Source: a virus
Taxonomy: Duplodnaviria > Heunggongvirae > Uroviricota > Caudoviricetes
Direction: 5' to 3' (one strand)
Length of the DNA stretch: 19,591 nucleotides
IMG/VR virus record: IMGVR_UViG_2713896770_000036
In this document: positions 9,001 through 12,000 of the stretch, piece after piece
Layout of the letters: the number at the start of each line of letters is the position of its first letter
Numbering within the stretch: position 1 is the first letter of the stretch
Program-made: the position numbers

Positions 9001-12000
9001 AATTCAGAAACTGATCCCTGCGGTTCTGGCAATTCTTCCGCGCGAGCTGCGTCACCGACTCCGTATCTTCGATACCCTGGAACGCCGTGCATTACTGGCG
9101 GCGCAGGAAGCGTTGAGTACGGCAATTGATGCGCATGATGATGCAGTCCAGGCCGTTTACCGGAAAGCACATTTCAGCGGTGGTGGGTCGCCCGGCGATT
9201 CTGTCGTAGTGCATTGATTGAAATTGATCGTGCCGGATTGTTTTGTTCGGTATCAGTTAAATGTAACGCTGCGAGCGTTACAAGGTGAAAACAAATGGCT
9301 TCAAACTGGATAAAGCTCGAGGTTATTACGCCGGATAAGCCGGAAATATTCAGGCTTGCTGAGATTCTGAATATTGATCCAGATGCCGCATTAGGGAAGG
9401 TTATTCGCTTCTGGGCATGGGCGGATCAACAAATGATAGACGGTAATGCAGATTGTAACGCTCGCGGCGTTACAAAAAGTGCAATAGACCGCATCACTTT
9501 TATGGCTGGTTTTGCTGATGCGTTAATTCAGGTTGGATGGCTGGTCGAAAATGACGGTGGGCTTTCTCTACCTAACTTTGAACGTCATAACGGAAAAAGC
9601 TCTAAAAAACGGGCGGTTACAAACGAGCGAGTTACAAAAATACGCGAACTGAAACGAAAAGGTAACGCTGGCAGCGTTACACAAACGGATCAAAAAGCGT
9701 TACCAGAGGAAGAGGAAGAGGAAGATATAAATACTGATCTCCCCCTAAATCCCCCTCGCCAAAAACGAGCGTCTAAAAAATTCGAGCCGGAGGCTATCGA
9801 GCTGCCTGACTGGTTGCCGGAAACACTCTGGCATGAGTGGGTTAAGTTCAGGCAGGCATTGCGAAAACCGATTCGAACGGAGCAGGGCGCTAACGGGGCG
9901 ATACGGGAGCTGGAAAAATTCCGTCAGCAGGGTTTTACACCTGAGCAGGTGATTCGACACAGCATCGCCAATGAATACCAGGGCCTGTTCGCGCCGAAAG
10001 GTGTTCGGCCTGAGACGTTGCTCCGACAGGTTAACACTGTCTCGTTGCCGGACAGTGCGATCCCGCCAGGCTTCAGGGGGTAACGGACCATGAAAAATAT
10101 TGCGACAGGCGGCGTTCTGGAACGCATCCGCCGACTGACCCCGCCACATGTAACCGCCCCATTCAGAACGGTAGCGGAGTGGCGCGAGTGGCAACTTGCT
10201 GAAGGCCAGAAACGTAGCGAGGAGATCAACCGCCTGAATCGCCAGTTGCGGGTGGAAAAAATTCTGAATCGTTCAGGCATCCAGCCGTTGCACCGTAAAT
10301 GCTCGTTTGCGAATTACCAGGTGCAGAACGACGGCCAGCGATACGCGTTAAGCCAGGCGAAATCCATCGCCGATGAACTGATGACCGGGTGTACAAATTT
10401 TGCGTTCAGCGGAAAACCTGGTACCGGGAAGAATCACTTAGCGGCAGCTATCGGGAATCGCCTGCTGAAAGACGGTCAGACAGTGATTGTGGTTACCGTG
10501 GCTGATGTTATGAGCGCCCTGCACGCCAGCTATGACGACGGGCAGTCAGGCGAAAAATTTTTGCGGGAGCTGTGCGAAGTAGATCTGCTGGTTCTTGATG
10601 AAATTGGCATTCAGCGCGAGACGAAAAACGAGCAGGTGGTGCTGCACCAGATTGTTGATCGCCGGACAGCGTCGATGCGCAGCGTGGGGATGCTGACAAA
10701 CCTGAACTATGAGGCCATGAAAACATTGCTCGGCGAGCGGATTATGGATCGCATGACCATGAACGGCGGGCGATGGGTGAATTTTAACTGGGAGAGCTGG
10801 CGTCCGAATGTCGTCCAGCCAGGAATTGCGAAGTGATTTTTACCGGGAGGAAATTTTAATGGAGACTGTTTTTGACGCACTGAAAGCGATGGGAAAAGCC
10901 ACATCCATAGAACTTGCTGCGCGACTTGATATCAGTCGTGAAAAAGTGCTGAACGAACTATGGGAACTGAAAAAAGGCTGGTTTCGTTGATAAAAGCGCG
11001 TATACCTGGCGTGTGGCTGATAACAACGTTCAGCAGGAACAGCCAGCGCCGGCAGAACTGCCGGAAGAAACTACCACGGCAACAGTCGCGAAAATTTCAG
11101 AGAGCGATTTAACTGCGACGATTGAACAACGTGGACCACAAACGGCGGATGAGCTGGCTACATTGTTTGGTACCACATCACGCAAAGTGGCTTCAACGTT
11201 GGCAATGGCAATCAGCAAAGGTCGTCTGATTCGCGTAAATCAGGGCGGTAAATTTCGTTACTGCATACCGGGCGATAATTTACCAGCAGAGCCGAAAGCA
11301 GCATCGGTAGCGGAAACTGATGGTAAGGCCTTTCCTCAGCCCGCAGGTGTTGCGTTACCAGTACAGGAGGCTGCAACACAGGAAGATATTAAAACAGAAA
11401 CTGTGGCGGACATTGTGCAGTCGCTGCCATCGTTTACTGAAACGCGAGCGGATGACCTGGTTTTACCATCACTGCATATGGCAAACCGCGAACTGCGTCG
11501 GGCGAAAAATCATGTCCAGAAGTGGGAGCGTGTCTGCGCCGCGCTGCGTGAGTTGAACAAGCACAGGGATATTGTACGACAGATTACTGATTCTTCCCGC
11601 CATGTTGCATCGGAAAAGTGATTGCCGGAGGCGCTTATGGCAAAAGTATTTACACAAGAAGAGCGGGAAAAAATTAAGGGGAAGGTTGTTGAGCTCGTGC
11701 GCCAGAGTGGGCGCGAGACGTTACGACAACTGGAAGCTAAGACAGGTGCGACAAGGTATCTGATGAGTGTTCTTGCCAGAGAGCTGGTTGCCAGTGGCGA
11801 TTTATACAACTCCGGCTACGGGTTATTTCCGTCTGAACAGGCACGTAAGGACTGGATAAAGGCCCGCAAAAAGATGTCGAAAGCAGCAGTGAAAAAAAAG
11901 AGCGACCCGGACCTGGTTTATTCATTACCAGACGGAGAAATACGCCGCTATGACAGGCGTCTGAACATAATCTGTCGCGAGTGTCGGAGGAGCGAAGCTA

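What the first reader, a model, noticed from the sequence alone, without database searches (positions are those of the whole stretch)
9263..9680. Four copies of a GTAACGCT...AGCGTTAC palindrome in and upstream of the replication initiator gene
Three near-perfect 19-bp palindromes and one degenerate copy are spread over 420 bp, one upstream of the start codon and three inside the coding sequence. Lambda places its origin iterons inside O, so this is a strong candidate for the prophage origin or autoregulatory sites.
Basis: seen in the sequence. Interest (0 to 1): 0.45.

Follow-up and report, generated by a model that had tools for sequence, protein, structure and literature searches.

The report
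Prophage replication origin inside its initiator gene
Three copies of a 19-bp palindrome in and just upstream of a Rac-like prophage's replication-initiator gene are almost certainly that initiator's own DNA-binding sites and probably its origin, a layout like phage lambda's but built from different parts and kept in prophages of many bacterial phyla.

Summary
Three GTAACGCT-N3-AGCGTTAC palindromes are real (9263-9281, 9455-9473, 9662-9680; 0.04 expected by chance). A true extra half-site lies at 9697-9703.

The gene is a 262-aa modular initiator (PHROG 2509, no Pfam domain) followed by a DnaC-like loader, in a Rac-like E. coli prophage. In homologues down to about 35% identity, from Enterobacterales to Planctomycetota and Verrucomicrobiota, the two intragenic palindromes keep their places. 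Their arms are almost invariant, including at synonymous positions, while the 3-nt spacer varies freely. The second site is read in different frames in different lineages. Variant lineages change both arms, both sites and the adjacent half-sites together (GTCACGC, GTTGCGC).

Only the N-terminal domain, predicted to be a winged helix, always accompanies the sites. The last palindrome is followed by phased half-sites, a conserved polypurine tract (9705-9725) and a short AT-rich stretch, exactly at the domain and recombination junction.

Best reading: initiator-binding sites that form an origin inside the gene, with the upstream copy possibly autoregulatory. Binding and replication were not tested. 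I rate it a new variant of a known kind.

The parts
9263..9281 (.). Palindrome P1, GTAACGCTgcgAGCGTTAC. It is intergenic between the ydaT-like gene (stop at 9217) and the initiator ATG (9295), and abuts the Shine-Dalgarno sequence AAGGTGA.
   Evidence: It is kept at -32 to -44 from the ATG in the window's lineage and in some relatives of 60-72% identity, with intact arms and varied spacers (GCG, GTG, TAC, CAC, CTG, GCC). It is absent from TL-2011b/Uetakevirus-type relatives.
9443..9449 (+). Half-site-like GTAATGC (1 mismatch), 12 bp upstream of the left arm of P2. It lies in a 12-nt in-frame insertion specific to this lineage.
   Evidence: the insertion reads GNAD|CNAR where relatives have GNAG.
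9455..9473 (.). Palindrome P2, GTAACGCTcgcGGCGTTAC. It lies inside the initiator gene and encodes the loop ..CNARGVT.. of the N-terminal domain.
   Evidence: It sits at the homologous position (+142 to +160) in nearly all homologues, across phyla. Third-position entropy is lowest here. The encoded loop has lower model confidence.
9616..9635 (+). It is two direct GTTACAAA motifs and probably not a binding site.
   Evidence: 8 of 16 mismatches to the palindrome, which is background level. Only the first motif is conserved, inside the conserved peptide KRA(V/L)TN.
9651..9657 (+). Weak left half-site-like motif GAAACGA, 11 bp upstream of the left arm of P3.
   Evidence: Sequence. Relatives carry one to three perfect GTAACGC repeats at 12-bp spacing at this place.
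9662..9680 (.). Palindrome P3, GTAACGCTggcAGCGTTAC. It is the centre of the proposed origin core and lies at the end of the N-terminal domain coding region.
   Evidence: It is conserved at +334 to +412 in homologues, in frame 1 or frame 0 depending on lineage.
9685..9691 (+). Decayed right half-site ACGGATC (it contains a GATC), 11 bp after the right arm of P3.
   Evidence: Sequence. Relatives have GCGTTTC or GCGTTAC here.
9697..9703 (+). Perfect right half-site GCGTTAC, abutting the polypurine tract. It encodes K-A-L-P.
   Evidence: The half-site next to the tract is conserved across the family and changes with the palindrome in variant lineages (GCGCAAC, GCGTGAC).
9705..9725 (+). Polypurine tract AGAGGAAGAGGAAGAGGAAGA. 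It encodes the EEEEEE linker and is the candidate unwinding or loading element.
   Evidence: It is the longest purine or pyrimidine run in the window. In 37 of 55 protein-defined loci, the longest purine run of the locus lies at this place, usually (GAGAA)n. Of 110 viral loci with an exact CCAGAGAAGAGAAGAGAAG, 98 carry this initiator family, and most of the other 12 show other repeated motifs directly in front of the tract.
9726..9739 (.). Short AT-rich stretch TATAAATACTGATC, which contains a GATC.
   Evidence: This is the most AT-rich 20-mer between 9600 and 9800, at 75% AT. TATAAA(A)GATAAA is conserved after the tract in relatives.
9741..9755 (.). C-tracts CCCCCTAAATCCCCC, the right-hand boundary element.
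   Evidence: The same element (CCCCCCCTAAATCCCCCCC) follows the repeats and AT-rich stretch in K-12 Rac ydaU. Many relatives have CCCCC..GGGGG here.
9295..10083 (+). Replication initiator gene, 262 aa. The N-terminal predicted winged-helix domain is encoded by about 9295-9640, the acidic linker by 9700-9745, and the C-terminal domain by 9745-10083.
10090..10836 (+). DnaC-like helicase loader (ydaV), the presumed partner of the initiator's C-terminal domain.
   Evidence: IstB_IS21 and Bac_DnaA Pfam hits. NCBIfam PRK12377 at 1.7e-153 and DnaC at 2.4e-91.

Best explanation
The palindromes are the recognition sites of the N-terminal domain of the initiator encoded by this same gene. The domain is predicted to be a winged helix and is inferred to bind as a dimer, one subunit per 7-bp half-site (GTAACGC / GCGTTAC) across a spacer it does not contact. 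Together with single half-sites phased at 11-12 bp, the sites form the prophage's replication origin inside the initiator gene.

The origin core is 9651-9755: palindrome P3 with flanking half-sites, directly followed by a 21-nt polypurine tract and a short AT-rich stretch. This lies exactly where the gene switches from its DNA-binding domain to its loader-binding C-terminal domain.

Inferred mechanism: initiator molecules assemble on P3 and its half-sites. The distal palindromes P2 (207 bp upstream) and P1 (399 bp upstream) add cooperativity by looping or wrapping. The duplex opens in the polypurine/AT stretch. The C-terminal domain brings in the DnaC-like YdaV with host DnaB. P1, which abuts the ribosome-binding site, may also let the initiator limit its own expression.

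Shown here: the sites are non-random, selected at the DNA level, co-evolve as a set, travel only with the N-terminal domain, and sit in a conserved origin-like arrangement. Inferred, not shown: who binds, where the DNA unwinds, and that replication starts here.
For: (1) Three sites against 0.04 expected by chance.

(2) DNA-level selection. In 52 homologues chosen by protein similarity, third-position entropy at the palindrome codons is 0.37-0.90 bits against a mean of 1.55, and 1.82 at the spacer codon. P3 is kept in frame 1 in some lineages and frame 0 in others, encoding NAxSVT or VTxxALQ. P1 is non-coding. Palindrome-plus-tract units also occur with no long ORF across them (L250, L291).

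(3) Binding-site signature. The cores GTAACG / CGTTAC are nearly invariant in 93 distinct sites and the spacer is unconstrained. Changes at inner arm positions 7-8 are uncompensated (74 against 4 compensated), whereas position 3 changes in both arms together (7 against 1).

(4) Concerted variation. L159 has GTTGCGC..GCGCAAC at both intragenic sites and in all flanking half-sites. L174, L176 and L180 have GTCACGC..GCGTGAC at both intragenic sites and in the half-site by the tract; L168 and L173 carry the same type less perfectly. L177 has a TGTCCGC array.

(5) Exclusive association. 117 of 120 viral contigs with the exact palindrome encode the N-terminal domain over it. In the 57 protein-defined loci there are no copies in the 2.5-kb flanks. 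The other genes are not constant: C-terminal domain 4 of 57, DnaC-like 12 of 57, YdaT 5 of 57, Cro 1 of 57, repressor 3 of 57.

(7) Origin-like setting. Half-site arrays are phased at 11-12 bp, followed by a conserved polypurine tract and an AT-rich stretch. This is at the domain junction and at the recombination breakpoints: relatives share window 9306-9733 or 9722 onward.

(8) K-12 Rac ydaU has a different N-terminal domain and a different repeat (ATGTTCAAAC), but the same AT-rich and C-tract boundary at the same place. Rac is reported to have an active origin, oriJ (PMC3945230).

(9) Precedent: ori-lambda lies in the middle of O and consists of 19-bp imperfect inverted-repeat iterons plus an AT-rich tract (PMC7466680).
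Against: There is no experimental evidence of binding or of origin activity for this family, and no paper on it was found.

The AT-rich stretch is only about 14-20 bp, and the region's overall GC content (0.42-0.48) is not markedly low.

The full palindromes are about 190-210 bp apart, unlike classical tandem iterons.

No DnaA box or IHF consensus lies nearby.

Covariation between site type and protein subfamily is confounded by phylogeny.

The polypurine tract also encodes a charged linker, so part of its conservation could be at the protein level.

Each palindrome can also form an RNA hairpin of -11 to -13.5 kcal/mol.
Confidence: 0.7

Rival explanations
1. The palindromes are purely autoregulatory operators. 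The initiator, or another regulator, binds them to repress transcription or translation of the initiator-loader operon, and the origin lies elsewhere.
For: P1 sits 14 nt upstream of the start codon and abuts the Shine-Dalgarno sequence. In other lineages it keeps a position of -32 to -44. As I recall, iteron-plasmid initiators use inverted repeats as operators.
Against: P1 is the least conserved of the three sites and is absent from most of the family. The two best-conserved sites lie about 150 and 370 nt inside the coding sequence. No promoter-like sequence overlaps any of them. The best-conserved arrangement is P3 plus phased half-sites plus a polypurine/AT stretch at the domain junction, which an operator does not need.
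Confidence: 0.12
2. The palindromes act as nucleic-acid hairpins: mRNA stem-loops that affect stability or translation, or single-stranded DNA hairpins or cruciforms used as priming signals, rather than duplex binding sites.
For: Each palindrome folds into an 8-10-bp RNA hairpin of -11 to -13.5 kcal/mol, with z-scores of -1.9 to -3.5. P1 lies directly before the ribosome-binding site. A terminator-like match on the minus strand covers P3.
Against: The arm sequence itself, not just its pairing, is almost invariant across phyla. Inner-stem changes are overwhelmingly uncompensated (74 against 4). Isolated half-sites cannot pair, yet they are conserved, phased at 11-12 bp, and change together with the palindromes. 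No Rfam family matches.
Confidence: 0.06
3. The repeats are a by-product of a repeated peptide motif (G-N-A-x-S-V-T) needed by the protein and have no DNA-level role.
For: N51, A52, V59 and T60 are at least 90% conserved at the protein level.
Against: Synonymous positions are fixed: GGT in 37 of 52, AAC in 41 of 52, AGC in 30 of 52, GTT in 42 of 52. P3 is read in another frame in many lineages. P1 is non-coding. Stand-alone copies occur with no long ORF across them. The peptide lies in a lower-confidence loop, and it changes (N to H, N-A to C-A) exactly as the variant DNA site dictates.
Confidence: 0.03
4. The sites are bound by some other protein: a host factor, a partition or packaging protein, or another phage regulator such as the YdaT/CII-like protein.
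For: Binding was not tested. YdaT-family proteins bind inverted repeats (as I recall, TTGATT-N6-AATCAA for CP-933P YdaT).
Against: YdaT, Cro, repressor and DnaC-like genes are absent from most loci that keep the sites. The sites persist in hosts from Enterobacterales to Planctomycetota, Verrucomicrobiota and Acidobacteriota, so a shared host factor with this specificity is unlikely. Site variants track N-terminal domain subfamilies.
Confidence: 0.05

Closest known systems
Bacteriophage lambda ori-lambda within gene O (and Stx-phage variants)
   Same: The origin is embedded in the middle of the initiator gene, at the boundary between the DNA-binding N-terminal part and the loader-binding C-terminal part. 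The binding sites are 19-bp units with inverted-repeat symmetry. They are followed by an AT-rich stretch. The N-terminal domain and its sites travel together as one exchangeable module (PMC7466680; the modularity of lambdoid O genes is from my own knowledge).
   Different: There is no sequence relationship to lambda O (no Pfam hit). Lambda has four to six tandem iterons packed next to one another. Here there are three full palindromes 192 and 207 bp apart, plus single half-sites at 11-12-bp phasing. The adjacent element is a GA-rich polypurine tract with only about 14 bp of AT-rich DNA. The partner is a DnaC-like AAA+ loader, not lambda P.
Rac prophage of E. coli K-12: ydaU-ydaV and oriJ
   Same: The gene order is the same (repressor, cro-like, ydaT, initiator, ydaV). 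The initiator's C-terminal domain is nearly identical (94.6% DNA identity from window 9826 onward). The AT-rich and CCCCCTAAATCCCCC boundary lies at the same place in the gene. Rac is reported to carry an active origin, oriJ (PMC3945230).
   Different: K-12 YdaU has a different N-terminal domain, annotated DUF1376/YdaU family, and a different repeat (ATGTTCAAAC-type, L182 2253-2344). I found no source that gives the position of oriJ within ydaU, so the equivalence is an inference.
Phage replisome organizers with the origin in their own gene (for example Bacillus phage SPP1 G38P and oriL)
   Same: Foldseek finds phage 'replisome organizer', DUF1376 and Lin1244/Lin1753-like proteins as structural neighbours. 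An origin inside the organizer gene, with repeated binding boxes next to an AT-rich stretch, is the known SPP1 arrangement (from my own knowledge).
   Different: There is no Pfam match to Phage_rep_org_N or DnaD-like domains. The binding sites here are palindromes plus half-sites rather than direct AB boxes. The structural matches have low TM-scores (0.2-0.35).
Iteron-plasmid initiators (RepA, RepE, pi): winged-helix Reps that bind direct iterons as monomers and inverted repeats as dimers
   Same: A winged-helix initiator is combined with both inverted-repeat sites and single half-sites in direct arrays. One inverted repeat lies just upstream of the initiator gene, suggesting autoregulation (the comparison is from my own knowledge).
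   Different: There is no sequence homology. No promoter-like site overlaps P1. The origin lies inside the coding sequence. The element is a temperate phage, not a plasmid.

Membership tests
PHROG 2509 'replication initiation protein' (phage initiator family) | Significant profile match of the N-terminal domain | tested here: met
   E 4.7e-71, residues 1-140 against profile positions 1-137 of 277.
Lambda-type origin inside the initiator gene | Repeated initiator-binding sites located inside the initiator gene at the junction of the N- and C-terminal domains | tested here: met
   P3 and its half-sites lie at 9651-9703, just before the linker. The module breakpoints are at about 9722-9733 and 9826.
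Lambda-type origin inside the initiator gene | Four or more closely packed tandem iterons | tested here: not met
   There are only three full sites, 192 and 207 bp apart. The close packing at 11-12 bp involves single half-sites only.
Lambda-type origin inside the initiator gene | Adjacent AT-rich unwinding region | tested here: inconclusive
   A 21-nt polypurine tract is followed by about 14 nt of AT-rich DNA (75% AT over the best 20-mer). There is no extended AT-rich block, and GC stays at 0.45-0.47 in 60-nt windows.
Lambda-type origin inside the initiator gene | Initiator homologous to lambda O (Pfam Phage_rep_O) | tested here: not met
   No Pfam family at E <= 0.01. Only the C-terminal part matches a PHROG named 'replication initiation O-like'.
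Lambda-type origin inside the initiator gene | Initiator binds the repeats, and the fragment supports initiator-dependent replication | not testable with these tools
   This needs EMSA or footprinting and a plasmid replication assay.
Rac YdaU / DUF1376 initiators (oriJ) | DUF1376 N-terminal domain | tested here: not met
   No Pfam hit. DNA similarity to K-12 ydaU starts only at window 9826. Foldseek finds DUF1376 phage proteins only at low TM-scores.
Rac YdaU / DUF1376 initiators (oriJ) | Shared C-terminal domain and DnaC-like partner YdaV | tested here: met
   94.6% DNA identity over query positions 627-901. YdaV matches PRK12377 at 1.7e-153.
Iteron-plasmid Rep autoregulation | Inverted repeat overlapping the promoter of the initiator gene | tested here: not met
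   The only promoter-like site in 8400-10200 is at 8537-8566, in front of the cro-like gene. None lies near P1. This was a simple consensus scan, so weak promoters could be missed.
Winged-helix DNA-binding domain | Helix-turn-helix followed by a beta-hairpin wing | tested here: inconclusive

The most novel reading that the evidence does not exclude
The invariant GA-rich polypurine tract, CC(A/T)AGAGAAGAGAAGAG or (GAGGAA)n, sits directly after the last half-site whatever the half-site sequence is (GCGTTAC, GCGTGAC, GCGCAAC, GCGGAC, GTCTAC and others), in prophages from at least six phyla. It could be a previously unrecognised, shared origin-core element: a polypurine-polypyrimidine unwinding or helicase-loading site, possibly read as single-stranded or triplex-prone DNA. 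Interchangeable winged-helix initiators would dock their own iterons onto it. A corollary follows from one binding site lying inside the coding sequence of the DNA-binding domain itself: a change of specificity forces an amino-acid change in that domain (AAC Asn to CAC His when GTAAC becomes GTCAC). The protein and its site are thus physically the same DNA.
Probability: 0.3. Interest if true: 0.75.

Novelty: new variant of a known kind. Interest (0 to 1): 0.55.

Why it matters
RefSeq annotates this initiator as a hypothetical protein, yet about an eighth of complete E. coli genomes (679 of 5426) carry this module, and relatives occur in prophages of many phyla. Knowing its recognition sequence and probable origin gives a direct handle for replication assays, for predicting replication incompatibility or cross-activation between co-resident prophages, and for annotating origins in thousands of prophages by a simple DNA signature: palindrome, half-sites, then a GA tract. 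The family also offers a natural series of initiator and site specificity variants, and a case where a protein's binding site is encoded within its own DNA-binding domain. If the conserved polypurine tract proves to be the unwinding or loading element, it would differ from the classical AT-rich unwinding element.

Tried and rejected

2. Pfam and NCBIfam gave no domain for the initiator. A PDB sequence search with a family profile found nothing.

3. Rfam at a permissive threshold over 8400-10900 gave no match.

4. There is no DnaA box (TTATNCACA, up to 1 mismatch) and no IHF consensus in 9100-9900.

5. The promoter scan found nothing near the palindromes. The single terminator-like hit on the minus strand at P3 is no more than the shuffles give.

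6. Literature searches for oriJ, ydaU plus replication, the palindrome sequence and the GA tract found nothing describing these sites. The whole-word 'oriJ' search mostly returned yeast pH papers that cite an author named Orij.

7. The search for related loci with the 33-sequence alignment failed because no stretch was conserved enough. It worked with a 9-sequence alignment.

8. The afdb50 fold library was unavailable.

9. Of the three viral contigs that carry the palindrome without a homologue, two (L061, L074) are isolated matches in unrelated DNA with no GA tract in the sequence around them. The third (L107) is a remnant, with an upstream palindrome in front of a recombined gene that keeps only the first ~16 codons of the family.

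10. I considered the YdaT/CII-like protein as the binder and rejected it, because it is absent from 52 of 57 loci that encode the N-terminal domain.
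Full report
**Context**

The window is a Rac-like lambdoid prophage of E. coli inserted next to yebY. Positions 9200-10100 are 100% identical to strain 7_33_46A. Around the finding, the gene order is:
- an HTH repressor (8040-8459, minus strand);
- a cro-like HTH gene (8556-8798);
- a YdaT/CII-like gene (8795-9217);
- a 262-aa gene (9295-10083);
- a DnaC-like loader, ydaV (10090-10836).

RefSeq calls the 262-aa protein 'hypothetical'. Phage records call it 'DNA replication protein O'. It has no Pfam domain. Its first 140 residues match PHROG 2509 'replication initiation protein' at E 4.7e-71, and its last 112 residues match 'primosomal protein' and 'replication initiation O-like' PHROGs.

**The observation**

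GTAACGCT-N3-AGCGTTAC occurs at 9263-9281, 9455-9473 (one mismatch) and 9662-9680. It occurs nowhere else in the window at up to 3 mismatches. The chance expectation is 0.04, and no shuffle of 200 reached three matches.

The proposed fourth, degenerate copy is not one. The best 19-mer in 9590-9650 has 8 of 16 mismatches, like 407 other positions in the window.

The region also contains:
- a perfect isolated half-site GCGTTAC at 9697-9703;
- weaker half-site-like motifs 11-12 bp from palindrome arms (9443-9449, 9651-9657, 9685-9691);
- a 21-nt all-purine tract at 9705-9725, the longest purine or pyrimidine run in the window;
- TATAAATACTGATC at 9726-9739;
- CCCCCTAAATCCCCC at 9741-9755.

**The gene is modular, and the sites belong to the N-terminal module**

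Relatives fall into two groups by which part of the gene they share:
- E. coli K-12 Rac ydaU, and a larger set of YdaU-type genes, share only the 3' part: from window 9826 and from window 9722 respectively.
- TL-2011b, the Uetakevirus phages ZX5 and BUCT554, and a Klebsiella phage share only window 9306-9733, at 67-71% DNA identity.

In the second group the two intragenic palindromes are present at the homologous places, although the surrounding DNA has diverged by about 30%.

**The palindrome occurs almost only with this domain**

Of these, 117 encode a homologue of the N-terminal domain (34-100% amino-acid identity) over the palindrome. One more (L107) is a recombined remnant, and two are isolated matches in unrelated DNA with no GA tract nearby.

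**A sample chosen without reference to the DNA motif**

I searched one genome per species with two degenerate peptide patterns that lie outside the palindromes. This gave 57 loci: Enterobacterales, other Gamma- and Betaproteobacteria, Planctomycetota, Verrucomicrobiota including Akkermansia, and MAGs labelled Ignavibacteriae, Latescibacterota, Thermoanaerobaculia and Anaerolineales.
- About 42 of these loci carry the palindrome (up to 2 mismatches): at both +142 to +160 and +334 to +412 from the start codon in most, at only one of the two in a few.
- None has a copy in the 2.5-kb flanks.
- Among the other phage genes of the window, none is a constant companion: the C-terminal domain occurs in 4 of 57 loci, the DnaC-like gene in 12, YdaT in 5, Cro in 1 and the repressor in 3.

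**Selection acts on the DNA**

- In a codon alignment of 52 distinct sequences from this sample, mean third-position entropy over 114 columns is 1.55 bits. At the palindrome codons it is 0.68 (GGT), 0.37 (AAC), 0.53 (AGC) and 0.90 (GTT). These are among the lowest values after Trp and Met. The spacer codon has 1.82 bits.
- The second intragenic site is read as (G)NAxSVT in some lineages and as VTxxALQ, one frame over, in others.
- P1 is non-coding.
- Palindrome-plus-tract units also occur with no long ORF across them (L250, L291).
- Over 93 distinct sites, the cores GTAACG and CGTTAC are almost invariant and the three central bases are unconstrained.
- Changes at arm positions 7-8 are nearly always uncompensated (74 against 4). 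Position 3 changes in both arms together (7 against 1).

This is the pattern expected of a dimeric protein-binding site. It does not fit a selected hairpin, although each palindrome could fold as RNA at -11 to -13.5 kcal/mol.

**Concerted variation**

Some distant lineages carry a different palindrome, and the change is the same in both arms, at both intragenic sites and in the single half-sites next to the purine tract.
- L159 (Planctomycetales) has GTTGCGC..GCGCAAC.
- L174, L176 and L180 have GTCACGC..GCGTGAC at both intragenic sites and in the half-site by the tract. L168 and L173 carry the same type with imperfect copies.
- L177 has an array of TGTCCGC with a TGTCCGC..GCGGACA palindrome in front of the same tract.

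Because P2 lies in the coding sequence of the N-terminal domain, these changes alter the protein: Asn (AAC) becomes His (CAC), and Asn-Ala becomes Cys-Ala. The affected residues lie in a loop (about 49-60) whose model confidence is lower than that of the flanking helices.

**The protein**

**Origin-like architecture**

Across the family, the second intragenic palindrome is the centre of a convergent array of half-sites: GTAACGC repeats on the left and GCGTTAC repeats on the right, at 11-12-bp spacing, about one helical turn. The last half-site abuts a GA-rich polypurine tract, which is followed by TATAAA(A)GATAAA and often by a CCCCC..GGGGG inverted repeat.
- In 37 of 55 protein-defined loci, the longest purine run of the whole ~5-kb locus lies at this spot.
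- An exact scan for CCAGAGAAGAGAAGAGAAG in IMG/VR gave 110 new loci. Of these, 98 carry this initiator family. Most of the other 12 show quite different repeated motifs directly in front of the tract, such as GTCCGC/GCGGAC, GTCTAC, TGCAACG and GGGGGACAAAA.
- The peptide encoded by the tract differs between lineages: EEEEEE from (GAGGAA)n here, REEKRRE from (GAGAA)n elsewhere. The purine-rich DNA is what they share, although a requirement for a charged linker cannot be excluded.

In the window this core spans 9651-9755, the junction between the two protein domains. This is also where the recombination breakpoints with other initiator types fall.

K-12 Rac ydaU has a different N-terminal domain and carries a different repeat (ATGTTCAAAC-type, five copies). 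These repeats are followed by an AT-rich stretch and CCCCCCCTAAATCCCCCCC at the equivalent place. Rac is reported to have an active origin, oriJ (PMC3945230). I could not find its exact coordinates.

**Interpretation**

The simplest account is that the palindromes and half-sites are recognition sites of the initiator's own N-terminal domain, and that they form an origin embedded in the initiator gene. This is what is established for lambda, where ori lies in the middle of O and consists of 19-bp imperfect inverted-repeat iterons and an AT-rich tract (PMC7466680).

The arrangement differs from lambda in several ways:
- full sites are about 200 bp apart, so P1 and P2 would have to act by looping or wrapping;
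- close packing involves single half-sites only;
- the adjacent element is a polypurine tract with only a short AT-rich stretch;
- there are no DnaA boxes;
- the loader is DnaC-like.

P1 is found mainly in enterobacterial lineages and always lies 14-26 nt from the start codon. It may also serve autoregulation, but no promoter-like site overlaps it.

**Limits**

Nothing here shows binding, unwinding or initiation. The fold assignment is weak, and the covariation is confounded by phylogeny. No paper in the searchable library describes these sites or the tract. That does not prove they are undescribed.

I estimate about 0.85 that these are binding sites of the initiator's N-terminal domain, and about 0.7 that they constitute the replication origin.

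Noticed in passing
L182 2253-2430 (E. coli K-12 Rac ydaU): K-12 ydaU has a different N-terminal domain and contains five copies of an ATGTTCAAAC-type repeat. These are followed by an AT-rich stretch with GATC sites and CCCCCCCTAAATCCCCCCC, at the position equivalent to the window's origin core. This is a plausible location for oriJ.
   Followed up: partly
L184-L293 (viral contigs with CCAGAGAAGAGAAGAGAAG), e.g. L187, L192, L224, L261, L287: The same GA-rich polypurine tract is preceded in different contigs by quite different repeated motifs (GTCCGC/GCGGAC, GTCTAC, GGGGGACAAAA, TGCAACG, GAGCATGCT). It may therefore be a shared origin-core element used with many initiator specificities.
   Followed up: partly
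L250 about 1230-1290; L291 about 3250-3340: Palindrome-plus-polypurine units with no long ORF across them, and no homologue of the initiator's N-terminal domain in the DNA held. These may be stand-alone or second origins.
   Followed up: no
window 9443-9454: This lineage has a 12-nt in-frame insertion (GGTAATGCAGAT) just before P2. It looks like a duplication of the left half-site and adds four residues (GNAD) to the protein loop.
   Followed up: partly
window 9207-9228: TTGATTGAAATTGATC contains two TTGAT motifs in direct orientation, immediately after the ydaT-like stop codon. YdaT of CP-933P is reported, as I recall, to bind TTGATT-N6-AATCAA. Not examined further.
   Followed up: no
window 9662-9680, minus strand, plus tail to 9652: P3 followed by CTTTTCGTTT on the minus strand scores as an intrinsic-terminator-like site. 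The total count of such sites in the region is no higher than in shuffles.
   Followed up: no
L140 and L141 (Stieleria magnilauensis, NZ_CP036432.1, 7.98 and 8.02 Mb): Two copies of the initiator module, showing the same 54% identity to the query and identical palindromes, lie about 44 kb apart in one Planctomycete chromosome. These could be two related prophages or a duplication.
   Followed up: no
window 10859-11621 (locus L183 11660-12422): The DUF1627 gene downstream of ydaV is annotated as frameshifted in the identical RefSeq record. In several database proteins a DUF1627 region (Pfam PF07789) follows this initiator's N-terminal domain (P0012, P0027, P0080, P0081), so recombinant or fused forms may exist.
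   Followed up: no
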